Virus record (IMG/VR): IMGVR_UViG_2617270987_000001
From: a virus
Lineage: Duplodnaviria; Heunggongvirae; Uroviricota; Caudoviricetes
Direction: 5' to 3' (one strand)
Length of the DNA: 5,673 nt
The notes under the pieces are model-generated. The model was not told where the DNA came from, ran no database searches, and saw nothing but the letters and a program-made list of their open reading frames with translations. Made by a program: the position numbers and the translations under genes. Shown here piece after piece: positions 1,639 through 5,557 of the stretch. Position 1 is the stretch's first letter; each line of letters starts with the position of its first letter.

Positions 1639-2196
1639 TCAACAATGAATTTTTAGCAATTGCTCCACAGTCATATTTTTAATTGCGCTCCGGTTTACAA
1701 GAGTCCATCCTTGTTTCTCCAGATAAAACCGGAAGGTATCCAGGGTGCAGACCATTGCGCCGTCAGGAACGGTTTCAGTGAATTTGATATTGCCGTGTTC
1801 GTCGAGACGGATAACCAGGGTGCGTCCGTCCCCGTGAATCATTTTGTCGGGAGACGGGGCGTTATTCTGGCGCAGTTCTGCTTCCATGCGGTCGAACTCA
1901 GCAATGTATGCCTCTTTAAATGCAGCGGCTTTTTTGCCAGTGAAGCCCATCACCAGGAAAACGAAGCCGTTTTTGGTGATTTGGTACATTGGGAGTTTGC
2001 GCCCGGTTGAGTCGGTGTATTCGCTCGACACAAAATTGTGCTCAGTGAATTTTGCTGAACAGTCCAGATTGCGAATTTTATCCAACACTCGTTCGTGGCG
2101 TTTGCCAAAGAACTCGGCGATCGCAACAGACGTAGTGACAGCGCGACCATTTTCGATGGTTACGTCAGGGTGAGAAAGGGTAAGGATAGTAGCCAT
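1639..2196 (-). CDS. rha: Phage regulatory protein Rha (Rha-family N-terminal domain), 185 aa
   Basis: Sequence from MATILTLSHPDVTIENGRAVTTSVAIAEFFGKRHERVLDKIRNL ... GFVFLVMGFTGKKAAAFKEAYIAEFDRME matches the conserved Rha-domain pattern as I recall it. ATG 2196 has GGAGG 8 nt upstream. The track ORF runs a further 99 codons upstream to 2493, but those codons are G/R/P-rich and contain a promoter and hairpin, so I take 2196 as the start. Confidence 0.85.
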   Translation of the reverse strand: MATILTLSHPDVTIENGRAVTTSVAIAEFFGKRHERVLDKIRNLDCSAKFTEHNFVSSEYTDSTGRKLPMYQITKNGFVFLVMGFTGKKAAAFKEAYIAEFDRMEAELRQNNAPSPDKMIHGDGRTLVIRLDEHGNIKFTETVPDGAMVCTLDTFRFYLEKQGWTLVNRSAIKNMTVEQLLKIHC

Positions 2197-2365
2197 GATG
2201 GCAGCCTCCGCGATGAATTTGATTAACTCACCACCGAGGTTTTCCACGACCATAAGGGTGGTGAGACGTACAGGGGTGGAAATACCGGTCATCACGGAAC
2301 CCGGCCAGCCTTGCGGCTGCCCTGCACGCCCCACCATAATGCGAATGTGGCTGTGCTTAACGCAT

Positions 2366-2388
2366 AAAAAAACCGCCTGAGCGCGGTT
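2366..2388 (-). terminator. Candidate intrinsic terminator (short GC stem plus U7) on the minus strand
   Basis: Minus strand reads AACCGC-GCUCAG-GCGGUU followed by a run of seven U (plus 2366-2372 is AAAAAAA). The stem is only about 6 bp including two A-U pairs, so it is weak. Confidence 0.35.
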
Positions 2389-2448
2389 ATGCGCCGTGAA
2401 TGATTTCGGGTTTCCACGCCCGGCACCCGTTTTATGAGGTGCAGGTGC

Positions 2449-2477
2449 ACTATAATTCCACCCGTTCTGGTTTTCAA
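2449..2477 (-). promoter_or_regulatory. Sigma70-like promoter on minus strand: TTGAAA, 17-nt spacer, TATAGT
   Basis: Read base by base on the minus strand: -35 TTGAAA (2477-2472), spacer ACCAGAACGGGTGGAAT (17 nt), -10 TATAGT (2454-2449). Predicted start near 2442, about 77 nt upstream of the end of the U-run. Confidence 0.45.
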
Positions 2478-2675
2478 TAGCTACATTCAACATTTTCTCT
2501 ACCTTTCATCACCTAAGTGAACTTTGTGATGCGGTGCCTGGTGCCTCCAGGTGACATTAACCAGTTAACAATTAACGCCGGATGATTCACCCATAACACT
2601 TGTGTTTTTAACTGTTCTGCGTGCGCTGAGCCGCATTCACCGCATCACGAAATTCACTTTTTACTTCATAGACCG

Positions 2676-3261: not shown

Positions 3262-3499
3262 CTTACCGCCGCGCCATTTCGCGGAGTGCCACAACCGGAA
3301 GCGCACGGTCGAAGAAATTAACGACAAGCCTCATAGGTGAAGGCCTTCGCCGTACGCTTTCGTGTTATGCCCTGACTTTTCAGGGAAATATCCTTTCAGT
3401 AAACTGTCAGTGCCGGATTCTTATCCGTGTCCGGCGCACGACCACACGTAGCCCCGTATTGGTCTCCATTTCTAACCCAGAACCTAAATGGAGGATAAA

Positions 3500-3784
3500 A
3501 TGGCAAAATTTACAGTCAGGATCGAACTTCGCGATTCCAGTTCCGCTGATTACGATAAGCTTCATGAACGAATGGAAGCAAAGGGATTCTCCAGAACGAT
3601 TACAACCTCTTTAGGGAACACCTACCGTCTTCCTAATGCCGAATATATATATTCAAGCAAGAATGAAGACAAAGAATCTGTTGCTGACCTTGCTGAATCA
3701 GTGGCCTCAAAAGTTAAGAAAAATCCCGGTGTTCTTGTTACCGAATCTAATGGGCGCTATGTAAAAAACTTAGATGATGCTTAA
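3500..3784 (+). CDS. Hypothetical small protein (94 aa), unrecognised family, plus-strand insert at the position sieB occupies in Rac
   Basis: ATG 3500 with GGAGG at 3490-3494 and a 5-nt spacer; the track's upstream ATG 3488 has no RBS. Protein MAKFTVRIELRDSSSADYDKLHERMEAKGFSRTITTSLGNTYRLPNAEYIY... Stop overlaps the stop of the convergent 48-aa gene by 4 nt. Visibly AT-rich. Confidence 0.8.
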   Translation: MAKFTVRIELRDSSSADYDKLHERMEAKGFSRTITTSLGNTYRLPNAEYIYSSKNEDKESVADLAESVASKVKKNPGVLVTESNGRYVKNLDDA

Positions 3785-3928: not shown

Positions 3929-4084
3929 TTATTCACCTGAATGTCTTACCAACCAACGACGCGCGCCAGATTCGGTTTTAAACGTTTTGCTTTTGGTATA
4001 CGTCATCGCGGTGAACGTTCCGTCCTGGTTGGGAAACACGCCGTATACCAGAGATTCGTTGTTGCCAAGATCGATAGTATCCAT
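3929..4084 (-). CDS. Tiny early protein (51 aa), first gene of the leftward operon; YdaF/YdaG-class by size and position
   Basis: ATG 4084 with GAGG 5 nt upstream; protein MDTIDLGNNESLVYGVFPNQDGTFTAMTYTKSKTFKTESGARRWLVRHSGE. An in-frame upstream ATG at 4162 (GAGG 9 nt upstream) would give 77 aa; I cannot tell which is used. Confidence 0.6.
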   Translation of the reverse strand: MDTIDLGNNESLVYGVFPNQDGTFTAMTYTKSKTFKTESGARRWLVRHSGE

Positions 4085-4263
4085 GTTGACCTCATTTCCC
4101 CTTAACGCCGGGGTAGCGGAACAAAAACCTGCTGCATAGTTAAAGTTGAACCCTGCCGTCATGTTCTTACGCCTCGGGCTGGCTACTTAACCCCTGACCA
4201 CTGCCTGGTAACTCAAAGTATTGCCCTGCATTCTGTGGGGCGGGGTGGGTTGGTATGAAAAGA

Positions 4264-4304
4264 AGGATACCCATAGGTATTTAAAAAGTAAATACCCATG
4301 GGTA
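4264..4304 (-). promoter_or_regulatory. OL/PL-like region: two palindromic operators overlapping a leftward promoter
   Basis: TACCCATAGGTA (4268-4279) and perfect palindrome TACCCATGGGTA (4293-4304), centres 25 bp apart. Minus-strand promoter candidate -35 TTTACT (4292-4287), 17-nt spacer, -10 TATCCT (4269-4264). Confidence 0.5.
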
Positions 4305-4346
4305 ACTTTTTGCGGTGTCTTAACTGGTGACTAGTTGTTTGGTGAG

Positions 4347-4766
4347 CTATGATGCGTTTTGTGCTTTCTTTTTACGGATTTCTTCGTAGATCATATTGTA
4401 ATACTGTTTTTTCTCTTCAAGAGTTTTTAATAATTTATCCGCTTCACTTTCTGGCAGTTCGTCTAAGAGATCTAAAAAAATACGTTGTCGTGGCGTTAGA
4501 ACCCTTGTTTCATAACTGGAGGCTGTGTTCGTTGATGATGAAACGATACCATCCATCCATCCCCGGGGTAACCCAAAGGACTCTTCGATAATCTCCACCA
4601 TATCATCAGCGATCCGTTTTTTTCCCTTTTTCCCCTCTGGGTACAACATTCTTGATACATAAGAAGGCTCGCGCCCGATCTTTCTGGCCACGTTAACCGC
4701 TTTACCATCGCATTTCTCATCACGAATTTTGATGAGTTGCTGTCGTCTAAATTCATATTTGTCCAT
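4347..4766 (-). CDS. Prophage repressor, cI/RacR-like HTH protein (139 aa), no peptidase domain evident
   Basis: HTH-like segment AVNVARKIGREPSYVSRML near the N-terminus. Located between the two operator clusters and divergent from the Cro-like gene. No SD upstream of ATG 4766. Confidence 0.8.
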   Translation of the reverse strand: MDKYEFRRQQLIKIRDEKCDGKAVNVARKIGREPSYVSRMLYPEGKKGKKRIADDMVEIIEESFGLPRGWMDGIVSSSTNTASSYETRVLTPRQRIFLDLLDELPESEADKLLKTLEEKKQYYNMIYEEIRKKKAQNAS

Positions 4767-4841
4767 AGGTAAATAATAGATGCGATTACTGCAAGGTAAA
4801 CAACCTGTGGGTATTGACTTTTGTTTACCTGTAGGTATTCT
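4760..4841. promoter_or_regulatory. OR-like region: three operator-like sites with divergent PR-like and PRM-like promoters
   Basis: TACCTGTAGGTA (4826-4837), AACCTGTGGGTA (4802-4813, centres 24 bp apart) and a weaker TGTCCATAGGTA (4760-4771) over the repressor start. Plus-strand promoter TTGACT (4814-4819), 16 nt, TATTCT (4836-4841). Minus-strand -10 TATTAT (4778-4773) lies 6 nt before the repressor ATG. Confidence 0.5.
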
Positions 4842-4866
4842 TTGCTGTGTTTACTAAGGAGTAGCT

Positions 4867-5148
4867 ATGGAAGAATTAAGAATATTTCTCAATTCTCTTT
4901 CGTCAGATGAACAGCGTATGTTTGCATGCGAGTGTGGTACCAGCATCGGTTATCTAAGAAAGGCATTGAGTAAAGGTCAAGTGTTAGGGGCATCGTTATG
5001 TGTCCTTATTGAGCGAGCCAGTAATGGTGAAGTTACACGTCAGCAACTAAGGCCTTTTGATTGGATGAATATTTGGCCCGAGCTGGAAGATACCAAAACG
5101 TTAACACAACCACTTTCTAGGAGCTTGATTCATGAAAATCAAGCATGA
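4867..5148 (+). CDS. ydaS: Cro-like HTH regulator of the YdaS family (93 aa)
   Basis: AAGGAG at 4856-4861, 5-nt spacer, ATG 4867. First rightward gene, divergent from the repressor. The FACECGTSIGYLRKALSKGQ ... LRPFDW pattern resembles YdaS/Cro-like proteins. Overlaps the next gene by 17 nt. Confidence 0.8.
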   Translation: MEELRIFLNSLSSDEQRMFACECGTSIGYLRKALSKGQVLGASLCVLIERASNGEVTRQQLRPFDWMNIWPELEDTKTLTQPLSRSLIHENQA

Positions 5149-5557
5149 ACACATCCGCATGGCGATGAATGCCTGGGCGCGTCCTGATGGCGAAAAAGTT
5201 CCAGCAGCTGGAATAACCCAGGCTTATTTTGAGTTGGGTATGACGTTTCCTGAACTGTATGACGACAGCCATCCGGAAGCCCTGGCTCGCAATACCCAGA
5301 AAATTTTCCGCTGGGTAGAGAAAGACACCTCTGATGCAGTTGAAAAAATTCAGGCGTTGTTACCAGCGATCGAAAAGGCAATGCCACCTTTGCTGGTGGC
5401 CAGAATGCGCAGCCACAGTTCAGCTTATTTTCGGGAGCTGGTGGAGACGCGGGAGCGACTGGTGAGAGACGCTGATGATTTTGTCGCAGTGGCAATCGCC
5501 GGTTTCAATCAGATGAACCGTGGTGGCCCGGCAGGAAATGCTGTGGCAGTACATTGA
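5132..5557 (+). CDS. ydaT: YdaT-family protein (141 aa)
   Basis: AGGAG at 5119-5123, ATG 5132. Begins MKIKHEHI and ends VH, as I recall for Rac YdaT; immediately follows and overlaps the ydaS-like gene. Confidence 0.8.
   Translation: MKIKHEHIRMAMNAWARPDGEKVPAAGITQAYFELGMTFPELYDDSHPEALARNTQKIFRWVEKDTSDAVEKIQALLPAIEKAMPPLLVARMRSHSSAYFRELVETRERLVRDADDFVAVAIAGFNQMNRGGPAGNAVAVH

What the first reader, a model, noticed from the sequence alone, without database searches (positions are those of the whole stretch)
4760..4866. Lambda-like three-site OR architecture with a probably leaderless repressor mRNA
Three TACC-N4-GGTA-type sites are arranged so that one overlaps the rightward promoter, one sits between the two divergent -35 elements, and a weaker one overlaps the repressor start. 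The repressor gene has no Shine-Dalgarno and its -10 candidate is 6 nt from the ATG, implying a transcript that starts at or near the AUG, as for lambda cI from PRM. This predicts cooperative, autoregulated immunity.
Basis: partly seen in the sequence, partly recalled or inferred. Interest (0 to 1): 0.5.

Follow-up and report, generated by a model that had tools for sequence, protein, structure and literature searches.

The report
Lambdoid prophage immunity switch region
This 100-base stretch is the on/off control region of an E. coli prophage: three repressor-binding sites interleaved with two back-to-back promoters, one of which probably starts the repressor's mRNA at its AUG; it is a well-conserved but ordinary variant of the phage lambda design, already shown by experiment in two sister prophages.

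Summary
The sites are real and not chance. TACC-N4-GGTA (at most 1 mismatch) occurs 8 times in the window against 1.24 expected. Five copies flank the repressor gene: three in the repressor/ydaS gap (4787-4798, 4802-4813, 4826-4837) and two just after the repressor stop (4268-4279, 4293-4304).

The true third site is 4787-4798, over the -35 and spacer of the leftward promoter.

In 34 of 44 loci compared (this window, two phages and 41 bacterial species), the same three-site layout sits at fixed distances from a conserved MDKYE start codon. A -10-like hexamer ends 6-7 nt before the ATG in 29 of the 44. The repressor has no Shine-Dalgarno.

The homologous CP-933P (PaaR2/YdaS/YdaT) and Rac (RacR) switches have experimentally mapped leaderless repressor transcripts.

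The lambda-like, leaderless reading is therefore well supported by sequence and homology. Cooperativity, order of site filling and autoregulation remain inferred.

The repressor joins a DNA-binding domain shared with S24-type CI proteins (phage mEp043) to a DicA/PaaR2-like C-terminal domain.

Verdict: a new member of a known kind, of modest interest.

The parts
4347..4766 (-). Repressor gene, 139 aa. It has an MDKYE-type helix-turn-helix DNA-binding domain (aa 1-75), a disordered linker (76-87) and a DicA/PaaR2-like helical C-terminal domain (about 88-139). There is no S24 peptidase domain.
   Evidence: ORF. PHROG 5736 'transcriptional regulator', E 6e-70. N-terminal 63-73% of the protein is 64-82% identical to S24-type CI proteins. 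C-terminal part matches the C-terminus of the NCBIfam DicA model, E 1.9e-5. PaaR2 BLASTP E 5e-9. AF2 pLDDT 85.5 with HTH_XRE-type fold matches.
4773..4778 (-). PRM -10 hexamer, TATTAT. It ends 6 nt before the repressor ATG, so the predicted start is at or next to the A of the ATG (4766).
   Evidence: A -10-like hexamer ends 6-7 nt from the ATG in 29 of 44 related loci.
4795..4800 (-). PRM -35 hexamer, TTTACC. It is made of the O2-O3 gap plus the first half of O3.
   Evidence: (A/G)TTTACC is found in 28 of 34 loci.
4787..4798 (.). O3, TACTGCAAGGTA (1 mismatch). Centre at -26.5 from the predicted PRM start. It covers the PRM -35 and spacer and is the predicted autorepression site.
   Evidence: 73 of 80 copies of this prophage have the perfect TACCGCAAGGTA. 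The centre is YRYR in only 6 of 34 loci.
4802..4813 (.). O2, AACCTGTGGGTA (1 mismatch). Centre at -41.5 from the PRM start. It abuts the PR -35, and its PRM-proximal half-site is degenerate.
   Evidence: O2 is perfect in only 1 of 34 loci, and the O2-O3 spacing is 15 bp in 34 of 34.
4814..4819 (+). PR -35 hexamer, TTGACT.
   Evidence: TTGnnn abuts O2 in 32 of 34 loci.
4826..4837 (.). O1, TACCTGTAGGTA (perfect). It lies in the PR spacer and shares TA with the PR -10. Centre at -65.5 from the PRM start.
   Evidence: O1 is perfect in 31 of 34 loci.
4836..4841 (+). PR -10 hexamer, TATTCT.
   Evidence: TAnnnT sits in this register in 31 of 34 loci.
4856..4861 (+). Shine-Dalgarno AAGGAG of the ydaS/cro-like gene. 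It contrasts with the repressor, which has none.
   Evidence: duplex energy -8.6 kcal/mol.
4867..5148 (+). Cro-type gene (YdaS-like, 93 aa).
   Evidence: PDB Cro 8c7k/8co2, E 1e-10. 73% identical to mEp043 Cro. 36% identical to CP-933P YdaS.
4293..4304 (.). OL2, TACCCATGGGTA (perfect). It abuts the PL -35.
   Evidence: The OL pair is conserved in 31 of 44 loci.
4268..4279 (.). OL1, TACCCATAGGTA (perfect). It lies in the PL spacer and shares TA with the PL -10.
4264..4292 (-). PL: -35 TTTACT (4292..4287), 17-nt spacer, -10 TATCCT (4269..4264). It reads leftward toward the DUF1391 gene.
   Evidence: Read from the sequence. The same register as PR is conserved in 31 loci. It falls below the scan threshold (8 of 12 matches).
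5125..5142 (.). TTGATTCATGAAAATCAA, a perfect copy of the YdaT (CII-like) high-affinity site OM. It lies over the ydaT ATG.
   Evidence: The motif is from PMC9986795. Sequence identity with the CP-933P-like locus begins here.
5132..5557 (+). ydaT (CII-like activator, 141 aa).
   Evidence: Pfam YdaT_toxin, 40.7 bits against a cut-off of 21. PDB 3c4r E 1e-87 and 8bt1 E 6e-78. 84% identical to the CP-933P-like YdaT.

Best explanation
Positions 4767-4866 are the right operator (OR) of a lambdoid E. coli prophage immunity module. The module also has a left operator (OL) at 4264-4304.

The 139-aa repressor binds 12-bp TACC-N4-GGTA dyads as a dimer.
- O1 sits inside PR and O2 abuts the PR -35. Occupying them shuts off the ydaS(cro)-ydaT(cII) operon.
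- O2, centred at -41.5 from the PRM start, is placed where lambda CI at OR2 activates PRM.
- O3 covers the PRM -35 and spacer and would shut PRM off at high repressor levels.
- PRM's -10 ends 6 nt before the ATG, so the maintenance transcript begins at or next to the AUG. It is translated without a leader or a Shine-Dalgarno.
- The OL1/OL2 pair controls PL in the same register. Together with the oligomerising DicA/PaaR2-type C-terminal domain, it may allow OL-OR looping over about 560 bp.
- The YdaS-like Cro is expected to use the same sites. YdaT, through its OM site at 5125-5142, is expected to drive an establishment transcript.

Shown here: the sites, their enrichment, their conserved geometry, the conserved position of the -10, the lack of a Shine-Dalgarno, and the homology relationships.

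Inferred: binding of the sites by this repressor, the order of filling, activation from O2, looping, and the exact transcription start.
For: - Enrichment: 8 sites against 1.24 expected, 0 of 200 shuffles reaching 8.
- In the 5-kb related loci, perfect sites occur almost only at OR and as a pair 25-26 bp apart downstream of the repressor gene.
- 34 of 44 loci compared (window, two phages, 41 species of Enterobacterales, Aeromonas, Neisseria, Burkholderiales, Xanthomonadales) keep O1, O2 and O3. Spacing is 25 or 24 bp for O1-O2 and always 15 bp for O2-O3.
- The PR and PL hexamers keep the same register with the operators.
- A -10-like hexamer ends 6 nt (13 loci) or 7 nt (16 loci) before the ATG; no other distance has more than 4 loci. 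Only one locus has a well-placed Shine-Dalgarno.
- The window's repressor has no anti-SD complementarity (+1.9, against -8.6 and -6.5 for its neighbours). The first 26 nt of the predicted RNA are unpaired.
- Sequence conservation begins exactly at M1 of MDKYE.
- Loci whose recognition helix departs from SYVSRML (L105, L121, L125) have lost the sites.
- Site quality differs in a conserved way. O1 is perfect in 31 of 34 loci. O2 is degenerate in 33 of 34. O3 lacks the YRYR centre that O1 and O2 keep: 6 of 34, against 28 and 30.
- Within 80 copies of this prophage, variation falls mostly in the N4 centres and the spacers, with few changes in the half-sites.
- Experimental precedent in homologues: CP-933P paaR2 is leaderless. 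PaaR2 and YdaS footprint the 97-bp gap. A low level of PaaR2 activates PRM and a high level represses it. OL/PL exists there too (PMC8630535). PaaR2 is homologous to this repressor (E 5e-9), YdaS is 36% identical and YdaT 84% identical. The strongest racR promoter is leaderless and Rac has three operators (PMC9638921).
- The AF2 model of the DNA-binding domain matches HTH_XRE repressors.
Against: - There are no 5'-end, footprint or reporter data for this element or for any member with this operator type. No paper with the motif was found.
- The promoter-scan hits alone are at chance level: 2 found against 1.5 expected. Only their conservation gives them weight.
- O3 has perfect half-sites in most alleles and loci, so it may not be the weakest site.
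- The O2-O3 spacing of 15 bp (about 1.4 helical turns) is unlike lambda's.
- OL has two sites, not three.
- The repressor lacks the S24 domain, so lambda-style RecA induction cannot apply.
- The CP-933P operators have a different sequence, and their exact binding sites were not resolved by the authors.
Confidence: 0.78

Rival explanations
1. The layout is as above, but the logic differs from lambda's. O2 and O3 lie 15 bp centre to centre, the spacing I recall (from memory, not tested) for the OL/OR boxes of restriction-modification C-proteins. They would form the cooperative unit: a distal activating dimer plus a proximal repressing dimer on PRM. O1 would act alone on PR.
For: The O2-O3 spacing is invariant (15 bp in 34 of 34 loci), while O1-O2 varies between 24, 25 and 35 bp. 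O2 is always degenerate and is flanked by a strong O3. The structural matches of the DNA-binding domain include the C.Esp1396I tetramer on its operator, 3clc, TM 0.69. Klebsiella loci keep O1 and O3 but lack O2, which shows that O1 can work without an O1-O2 pair.
Against: The OL pair and the O1-O2 pair share the 24-26 bp spacing. That argues that 25 bp is the spacing used for pairwise binding at the lytic promoters. O3's centre is unconstrained, unlike those of O1 and O2. In CP-933P, a low level of PaaR2 activates PRM while already repressing PR (PMC8630535).
Confidence: 0.15
2. One reading: a functional weak operator overlies the repressor start codon (4760-4771). This would give a site over the ATG, as reported for operator 3 of Rac.
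For: TGTCCATAGGTA has one perfect half-site. In Rac the racR ATG lies within operator 3 (PMC9638921).
Against: With 2 mismatches the match is at chance level: 30 found against 17.3 expected. No related locus has a TACC/GGTA half-site at that position, whereas O1-O3 are conserved in 34 of 44. The conserved third site is 4787-4798.
Confidence: 0.05
3. The repressor is made mainly from leadered transcripts. These would come from a YdaT-activated PRE-like promoter near 5125-5142, or from other upstream starts as seen for racR. The hexamer next to the ATG would then not be a working promoter.
For: The YdaT OM site is present and perfect. CP-933P has a YdaT-activated PRE (PMC8630535). racR has three mapped starts. 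The PRM -35 is weak, at 4 of 6 matches.
Against: The -10 position is conserved 6-7 nt from the ATG in 29 of 44 loci across several orders of bacteria. There is no Shine-Dalgarno that a leadered mRNA could use. No promoter-like site was found at 5000-5350. In CP-933P and Rac the leaderless start is the start mapped in the repressed state. A PRE transcript would add to PRM, as in lambda, rather than replace it.
Confidence: 0.07
4. The repeats are chance matches or non-regulatory.
For: None beyond the short length of the motif.
Confidence: 0.01

Closest known systems
Phage lambda OR/OL with PR, PRM and leaderless cI
   Same: Divergent repressor and cro genes. Three dyad operators are interleaved with PR and PRM. 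With the start at the ATG, O2 and O1 are centred at -41.5 and -65.5, against about -42 and -66 for lambda OR2 and OR1 (own knowledge). A second operator cluster sits at PL, and the PRM -10 lies immediately upstream of the ATG.
   Different: The operators are 12 bp (TACC-N4-GGTA), not 17 bp. O2-O3 is 15 bp centre to centre, not 23 bp. OL has two sites. The repressor has no S24 autocleavage domain. Cro is YdaS-like and CII is YdaT. The OL-OR distance is about 560 bp.
CP-933P/Sp12 immunity region (PaaR2-YdaS-YdaT) of E. coli O157:H7 (PMC8630535, PMC9986795)
   Same: The same module type. The repressor is a distant homologue with the same C-terminal domain. YdaS is 36% identical and YdaT 84% identical. 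The YdaT OM site is identical. The gap is about 100 bp, and the -10 lies 6 nt from the ATG. The leaderless transcript, the footprints, activation at low repressor and repression at high repressor, and OL/PL were all shown there by experiment.
   Different: The DNA-binding domain and the operator sequence differ: GTTTAGTAA-type repeats, four equally spaced palindromes. There is no paaA2-parE2 toxin-antitoxin pair downstream of the repressor here. This is a hetero-immune cassette joined at the start of ydaT.
Phage mEp043 (and CharmingMan) cI-cro region
   Same: The same DNA-binding domain (65% identity over 86 aa). Cro is 73% identical. The O3-O2-O1 and OL layouts are identical, and the -10 lies 6-7 nt from the ATG.
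   Different: Their CI proteins are 222-228 aa with an S24 peptidase C-terminal domain. They have a lambda-type cII and N. I found no published operator or transcription-start mapping for them.
Rac prophage RacR-YdaS-YdaT (PMC9638921)
   Same: Divergent repressor and ydaS genes, three operators, and a strongest repressor promoter that gives a leaderless mRNA.
   Different: The operators are TAGGC-n3-GCCTA, and operator 3 covers the racR ATG. racR has several promoters. No close sequence relationship to this repressor was tested here.
Qin prophage DicA (NCBIfam NF007257)
   Same: The C-terminal 50 aa match the C-terminus of the DicA model (E 1.9e-5). The prophage sits at a Qin-like site beside rspB and carries dicB.
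   Different: The whole-protein score is 24.5 bits against a cut-off of 101. The N-terminal DNA-binding domain is unrelated to DicA's.
Rep repressor of Salmonella phage SPC32H (PDB 5d4z, 5d50)
   Same: The best structural match of the AF2 model (E 9e-4). It is a short repressor that was crystallised in complex with an antirepressor.
   Different: Only 16-17% identity, with high rmsd over the full length. No antirepressor partner has been shown for this repressor.

Membership tests
Lambdoid immunity region (CI/Cro bistable switch) | Divergently transcribed repressor and cro-type genes separated by a short control region | tested here: met
   Repressor 4347-4766 (-) and ydaS-like gene 4867-5148 (+), with a 100-bp gap.
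Lambdoid immunity region (CI/Cro bistable switch) | Three repeated dyad operators interleaved with PR and PRM | tested here: met
   O1-O3, conserved in 34 of 44 loci with a fixed register to the promoter hexamers.
Lambdoid immunity region (CI/Cro bistable switch) | A second operator cluster (OL) at a leftward early promoter | tested here: met
   Two perfect sites at 4268-4304 in a PL register. The pair is conserved in 31 of 44 loci. It has two sites, not three.
Lambdoid immunity region (CI/Cro bistable switch) | A repressor with a RecA-stimulated S24 autocleavage domain | tested here: not met
   No Pfam S24 hit for the window protein even at E 10, whereas relatives P0046 and P0042 have it. The C-terminus is DicA-like.
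Lambdoid immunity region (CI/Cro bistable switch) | A CII-type activator with its site and a PRE promoter | tested here: inconclusive
   YdaT and a perfect OM site are present. No sigma-70-like PRE was found at 5000-5350, as expected for an activator-dependent promoter.
Lambdoid immunity region (CI/Cro bistable switch) | Ordered, cooperative occupancy of the operators and autoregulation of PRM | not testable with these tools
   Only indirect evidence: conserved differences in site quality and the CP-933P reporter data (PMC8630535).
Leaderless mRNA | The transcription start coincides with the A of the start codon | not testable with these tools
   Predicted from a -10 that ends 6 nt before the ATG. 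Mapped by experiment only in the homologues CP-933P and Rac.
Leaderless mRNA | No Shine-Dalgarno, and a promoter -10 placed 5-8 nt upstream of the ATG, conserved among relatives | tested here: met
   Anti-SD duplex energy +1.9 kcal/mol. The -10 lies at 6-7 nt in 29 of 44 loci.
PaaR2/DicA-type short prophage repressors | An N-terminal HTH domain plus the shared helical C-terminal domain | tested here: met
   AF2 model: HTH domain 1-75 and helices 92-138. The C-terminus of the DicA model is matched by the window protein, PaaR2, Tritos CI, P0024 and P0026. BLASTP against PaaR2 gives E 5e-9.
PaaR2/DicA-type short prophage repressors | Whole-protein membership of the NCBIfam DicA subfamily (NF007257) | tested here: not met
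   24.5 bits against a cut-off of 101. Only the C-terminal 50 aa align.
mEp043-type (MDKYE) CI DNA-binding domain with TACC-N4-GGTA operators | A DNA-binding domain with MDKYE...SYVSRML...KKRIAD, together with the O3-3nt-O2-12/13nt-O1 layout and a homologous Cro | tested here: met
   This grouping is my own and is not a curated family.
Pfam YdaS_toxin (PF15943) | Score above the gathering threshold | tested here: not met
   25.8 bits against 30. Homology to the CP-933P-type Cro structures 8c7k/8co2 is nevertheless clear (E 1e-10).
Pfam YdaT_toxin (PF06254) | Score above the gathering threshold | tested here: met
   40.7 bits against 21. PDB 3c4r, E 1e-87.

The most novel reading that the evidence does not exclude
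The MDKYE domain, the TACC-N4-GGTA operators and the YdaS-like Cro form one immunity-specificity cassette. Its half-sites and geometry have stayed essentially invariant across beta- and gamma-proteobacterial prophages. It is paired interchangeably with either an SOS-cleavable S24 domain or a non-cleavable DicA/PaaR2-type oligomerisation domain. If both repressor types bind the same operators, a cryptic prophage like this one would impose SOS-insensitive immunity on mEp043-type phages. It could block superinfection and possibly hold a co-resident S24-type prophage repressed after DNA damage. Its own release would depend on an antirepressor route, and the isrK/C4-Rha module lies 2.4 kb away.
Probability: 0.2. 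Interest if true: 0.55.

Novelty: new member of a known kind. Interest (0 to 1): 0.3.

Why it matters
The element gives a clean, sequence-defined operator set for a prophage repressor present in about 15% of complete E. coli genomes (822 of 5426), including O103, O145 and O55:H7 strains. It assigns the PGAP 'hypothetical protein' as the CI-type repressor.

The comparative data turn one lambda-like guess into a conserved rule for a whole repressor family:
- a fixed O1/O2/O3 geometry;
- an O2 that is always degenerate;
- an O3 with a different centre;
- a -10 that ends 6-7 nt before the ATG.

That rule corrects gene starts that callers extend upstream for want of a Shine-Dalgarno. It also provides many natural variants for testing how operator spacing and C-terminal domain swaps shape lysogeny switches.

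It does not reveal a new principle. Lambda, CP-933P and Rac already show the design.

Tried and rejected
- The weak site over the ATG (4760-4771) is at chance level and is not conserved.
- The promoter scan alone does not stand as evidence: 2 hits against 1.5 expected. Only the cross-species register was used.
- The repressor has no Pfam match, even at E 10. The PDB sequence search gave only noise, such as ADAR Z-alpha at E 0.08.
- A viral-contig scan with the single protein returned only near-identical copies. These served as a population sample, but an alignment query was needed to reach distant loci.
- Phage Tritos shares only the C-terminal part of the repressor and has none of the sites.
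- Searches for the motif, for mEp043 operators and for the RefSeq protein accessions found no paper describing this operator.
- A search for a LexA box as a possible SOS link found nothing beyond chance.
- No sigma-70-like PRE was found near the YdaT site.
- The terminator-like hairpin at 4268-4304 is simply the two OL palindromes pairing. I do not claim it as a terminator.
Full report
**What is in the window.** The finding lies between two divergent genes. On the minus strand is a 139-aa ORF (4347-4766). It has no Pfam match but belongs to PHROG 5736, 'transcriptional regulator' (E 6e-70). On the plus strand is a 93-aa YdaS/Cro-like gene (4867-5148). It matches the PDB Cro entries 8c7k and 8co2 at E 1e-10. 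It overlaps a 141-aa ydaT gene (5132-5557), which matches PDB 3c4r at E 1e-87 and 8bt1 at E 6e-78.

The region is a lambdoid prophage of E. coli. 822 of 5426 complete genomes hold at least 80% of positions 4200-5200. In O103 strain RM8385 it sits beside rspB, together with integrase, exonuclease, dicB, replication genes and a RusA-family gene. There the repressor is annotated only as 'hypothetical protein'.

**Checking the observation.** TACC-N4-GGTA with at most one mismatch occurs 8 times in the window, against 1.24 expected; none of 200 shuffles reach 8. Five of the eight flank the repressor gene.
- Three lie in the 100-bp gap: 4787-4798 (TACTGCAAGGTA), 4802-4813 (AACCTGTGGGTA) and 4826-4837 (TACCTGTAGGTA).
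- Two perfect copies lie 43 and 68 nt after the repressor stop: 4293-4304 and 4268-4279.

The promoter scan finds PR as TTGACT (4814-4819), 16 nt, TATTCT (4836-4841). It finds a leftward promoter as TTTACC (4800..4795), 16 nt, TATTAT (4778..4773).

The 20 nt upstream of the repressor ATG have no complementarity to the anti-Shine-Dalgarno sequence. The duplex energy is +1.9 kcal/mol, against -8.6 for ydaS (AAGGAG at 4856-4861) and -6.5 for ydaT. The first 26 nt of an RNA starting at the AUG are unpaired in the minimum-energy fold.

At that stringency the window has 30 matches against 17.3 expected. The site has no equivalent in relatives (below). Two of the three sites and the -10/ATG geometry are right. 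The third site was mis-assigned. A left operator pair lies outside the stated range.

**Who the repressor is.** The N-terminal 63-73% of the protein is 64-82% identical to the N-termini of 221-242-aa CI/LexA-family proteins that carry an S24 peptidase domain. It is 65% identical to cI of phage mEp043 over 86 aa.

The C-terminal 50 aa instead match the C-terminus of the NCBIfam DicA model (E 1.9e-5; whole-protein score 24.5 bits against a cut-off of 101). PaaR2 of CP-933P, the 'CI' of phage Tritos and other short relatives match the same part of the model.

I recovered PaaR2 from a CP-933P-like contig (L126). BLASTP against the window protein gives E 5e-9 over 90 aa. YdaS is 36% identical and YdaT 84% identical.

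An AlphaFold2 model (pLDDT 85.5) has a helical DNA-binding domain (residues 1-75), a disordered linker (76-87) and two long C-terminal helices. Its best PDB matches are the Rep repressor of Salmonella phage SPC32H (5d50, 5d4z), followed by HTH_XRE proteins: C-proteins, HigA, lambda repressor and TP901-1 CI.

The family is sizeable. 709 representatives of 50%-identity clusters match at E up to 1e-3, and 230 at E up to 1e-10.

**Comparative test of the architecture.** Phages mEp043 and CharmingMan show the same arrangement upstream of cI: O3, 3 nt, O2, 12-13 nt, O1. They also have two perfect sites 25-26 bp apart downstream of cI, and a TAGAAT hexamer 6-7 nt from the cI ATG. Their Cro proteins are 73% and 50% identical to the window's YdaS-like protein. 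The DNA-binding domain, the operators and Cro therefore travel together.

Using an alignment of 18 DNA-binding domains, I fetched 41 loci from different species: Enterobacterales, Aeromonas, Neisseria, Burkholderiales, Xanthomonadales and others. The set compared is 44 loci: these 41, the two phages and the window itself.
- In 34 of 44 the three sites are present at fixed positions. O3 starts 32-35 nt before the ATG. The O2-O3 spacing is 15 bp in all 34. The O1-O2 spacing is 25 bp in 28 and 24 bp in 5.
- Perfect sites in these 5-kb loci occur almost nowhere except at OR and as the downstream pair.
- PR is conserved in register. TTGnnn abuts O2 in 32 of 34. The spacer is 17 nt (28 loci) or 16 nt (5 loci). 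TAnnnT shares its TA with O1 in 31 of 34.
- PL has the same construction in 31 loci. In the window this gives TTTACT (4292..4287), 17 nt, TATCCT (4269..4264).
- Loci that have lost the sites have a changed recognition helix. L121 and L125 read ASISHML and ATISHLL, and L105 reads SYVNRIF, instead of SYVSRML. This links the domain to the motif.

**The leaderless question.** A -10-like hexamer (A at position 2, T at position 6, at least 4 of 6 matches) ends 6 nt before the ATG in 13 loci and 7 nt before it in 16 loci, out of 44. No other distance from 0 to 39 nt has more than 4 loci. Several loci that miss this criterion still carry an nnnAAT hexamer at the same place. Only one locus (L116) has a well-placed Shine-Dalgarno, and it also lacks the three-site layout.

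Protein conservation starts exactly at M1: M1, K3, Y4 and E5 are invariant. Gene callers often add spurious N-terminal extensions such as MLMSMDKYE or MVNDVKIASMDKYE. That is what one expects when the true start has no ribosome-binding site.

In CP-933P the -10 (GATAAT) is likewise 6 nt from the paaR2 ATG. There, 5' RACE, N-terminal sequencing and mass spectrometry showed a leaderless transcript (PMC8630535). In Rac the strongest racR promoter gives a leaderless transcript (PMC9638921).

The prediction for this window is therefore strong, but it remains a prediction.

**How it most likely works.** With the start at 4766, O2 is centred at -41.5 and O1 at -65.5. From my own knowledge these are the positions of lambda OR2 and OR1 relative to PRM, about -42 and -66. 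O3 is centred at -26.5 and covers the PRM -35 and spacer.

Site quality is patterned in a conserved way.
- O1 is perfect in 31 of 34 loci.
- O2 is imperfect in 33 of 34, always in the PRM-proximal half-site.
- O3 usually has perfect half-sites (23 of 34) but lacks the pyrimidine-purine-pyrimidine-purine centre that O1 (28 of 34) and O2 (30 of 34) keep. Only 6 of 34 O3 sites have it.

My inference is as follows. O1 is the strong anchor. O2 is filled with help from O1. Together they close PR and place a dimer where it can stimulate PRM. O3 is a different, probably weaker site that turns PRM down. CP-933P reporters behave this way: low PaaR2 raises PRM about 4-fold while lowering PR, and high PaaR2 represses both.

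PaaR2 octamerises in solution. If the shared C-terminal domain does the same here, OL and OR, about 560 bp apart, could loop.

This was recalled from memory and not tested.

Because the repressor lacks S24, induction cannot be by RecA-stimulated autocleavage. An antirepressor route is plausible but unshown.

**Population detail.** Among 80 copies of this prophage, 73 have a perfect O3 (TACCGCAAGGTA on the plus strand). The window carries the minority allele TACTGCAAGGTA (7 of 80), together with a centre variant in O1. Most other polymorphisms fall in the N4 centres and the spacers, and few touch the half-sites.

**Comparison with known systems and novelty.** The design is that of lambda. It has been demonstrated in the homologous CP-933P module and in Rac. 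What is specific here is threefold:
- the operator sequence, for which I found no description in the searchable literature;
- its conservation across distant hosts;
- the combination of an mEp043-type DNA-binding domain with a DicA/PaaR2-type C-terminal domain.

The cassette is joined to a CP-933P-like ydaT exactly at the YdaT OM site (TTGATTCATGAAAATCAA, 5125-5142; motif from PMC9986795).

I rate it a new member of a known kind. It is well supported and useful for annotation and as an experimental system, but it is not surprising to a phage specialist.

Noticed in passing
window 2254-2341 (-) and 2366-2442 (-): Rfam gathering-level hits to C4 antisense RNA (81.9 bits) and to isrK Hfq-binding RNA (67.7 bits). 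Both lie inside the mechanical 284-aa 'Ash + Rha' ORF (1639-2493, minus strand). The real Rha-type gene probably starts downstream of them. From memory, this resembles the P1 immI and Gifsy-1 isrK-anrP antirepressor modules. It could be the induction route for a repressor that lacks an S24 domain.
   Followed up: partly
window 5125-5142: A perfect YdaT high-affinity site (TTGATT-N6-AATCAA) lies over the ydaT start codon. Identity with the CP-933P-like locus L126 begins exactly at this site and is absent to its left. This marks a mosaic junction of the immunity cassette.
   Followed up: yes
window 4268-4304 (-): The two OL palindromes can pair into a 16-bp hairpin followed by UCCUUCUUUU, 43 nt after the repressor stop. 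The scan flags it as terminator-like. It may be only a by-product of two near-identical palindromes, or it may double as the terminator of the repressor transcript.
   Followed up: no
window 4787-4798 compared with L001 8588-8599 and L005-L084: The window carries a minority O3 allele (TACT instead of TACC, 7 of 80 copies) and an O1 centre variant. This is a natural operator polymorphism that could alter autorepression.
   Followed up: partly
proteins P0031-P0120; loci L085-L125: The same DNA-binding domain, operators and Cro occur with two different C-terminal domains. Most loci have an S24 peptidase version (about 220-240 aa). The others have a short DicA/PaaR2-like version (about 135-150 aa) in E. 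coli, Salmonella, Serratia, Yersinia and Arsenophonus. This is a domain swap on a constant operator set.
   Followed up: partly
proteins P0010, P0016, P0019 (window frame 4496-4756, minus strand): Some E. coli strains carry frameshifted repressor alleles. Their N-terminus (MNLDDSNSSKFVM...) comes from the other reading frame and rejoins the repressor frame at about residue 50.
   Followed up: no
L086, L089, L090, L092 (Klebsiella): These loci keep O1 and O3 at the usual positions but have no O2. An unrelated AT-rich segment (ttgctatatttta) replaces it. They form a natural two-site variant of the switch.
   Followed up: no
proteins P0028, P0036, P0042, P0059, P0064, P0082 and others: Database gene models of many family members carry short N-terminal extensions before the conserved MDKYE. 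These are probably start-codon miscalls caused by the missing Shine-Dalgarno.
   Followed up: partly
window 3488-3784 (+) and 3929-4162 (-): A 98-aa ORF has a sub-threshold GhoS (antitoxin endoribonuclease) Pfam hit (E 8e-4, 19.8 bits against 21) and no Shine-Dalgarno (duplex energy +0.2). Downstream of PL there is a DUF1391 gene whose long (77 aa) and PGAP-annotated short (50 aa) starts both have Shine-Dalgarno-like sequences.
   Followed up: no
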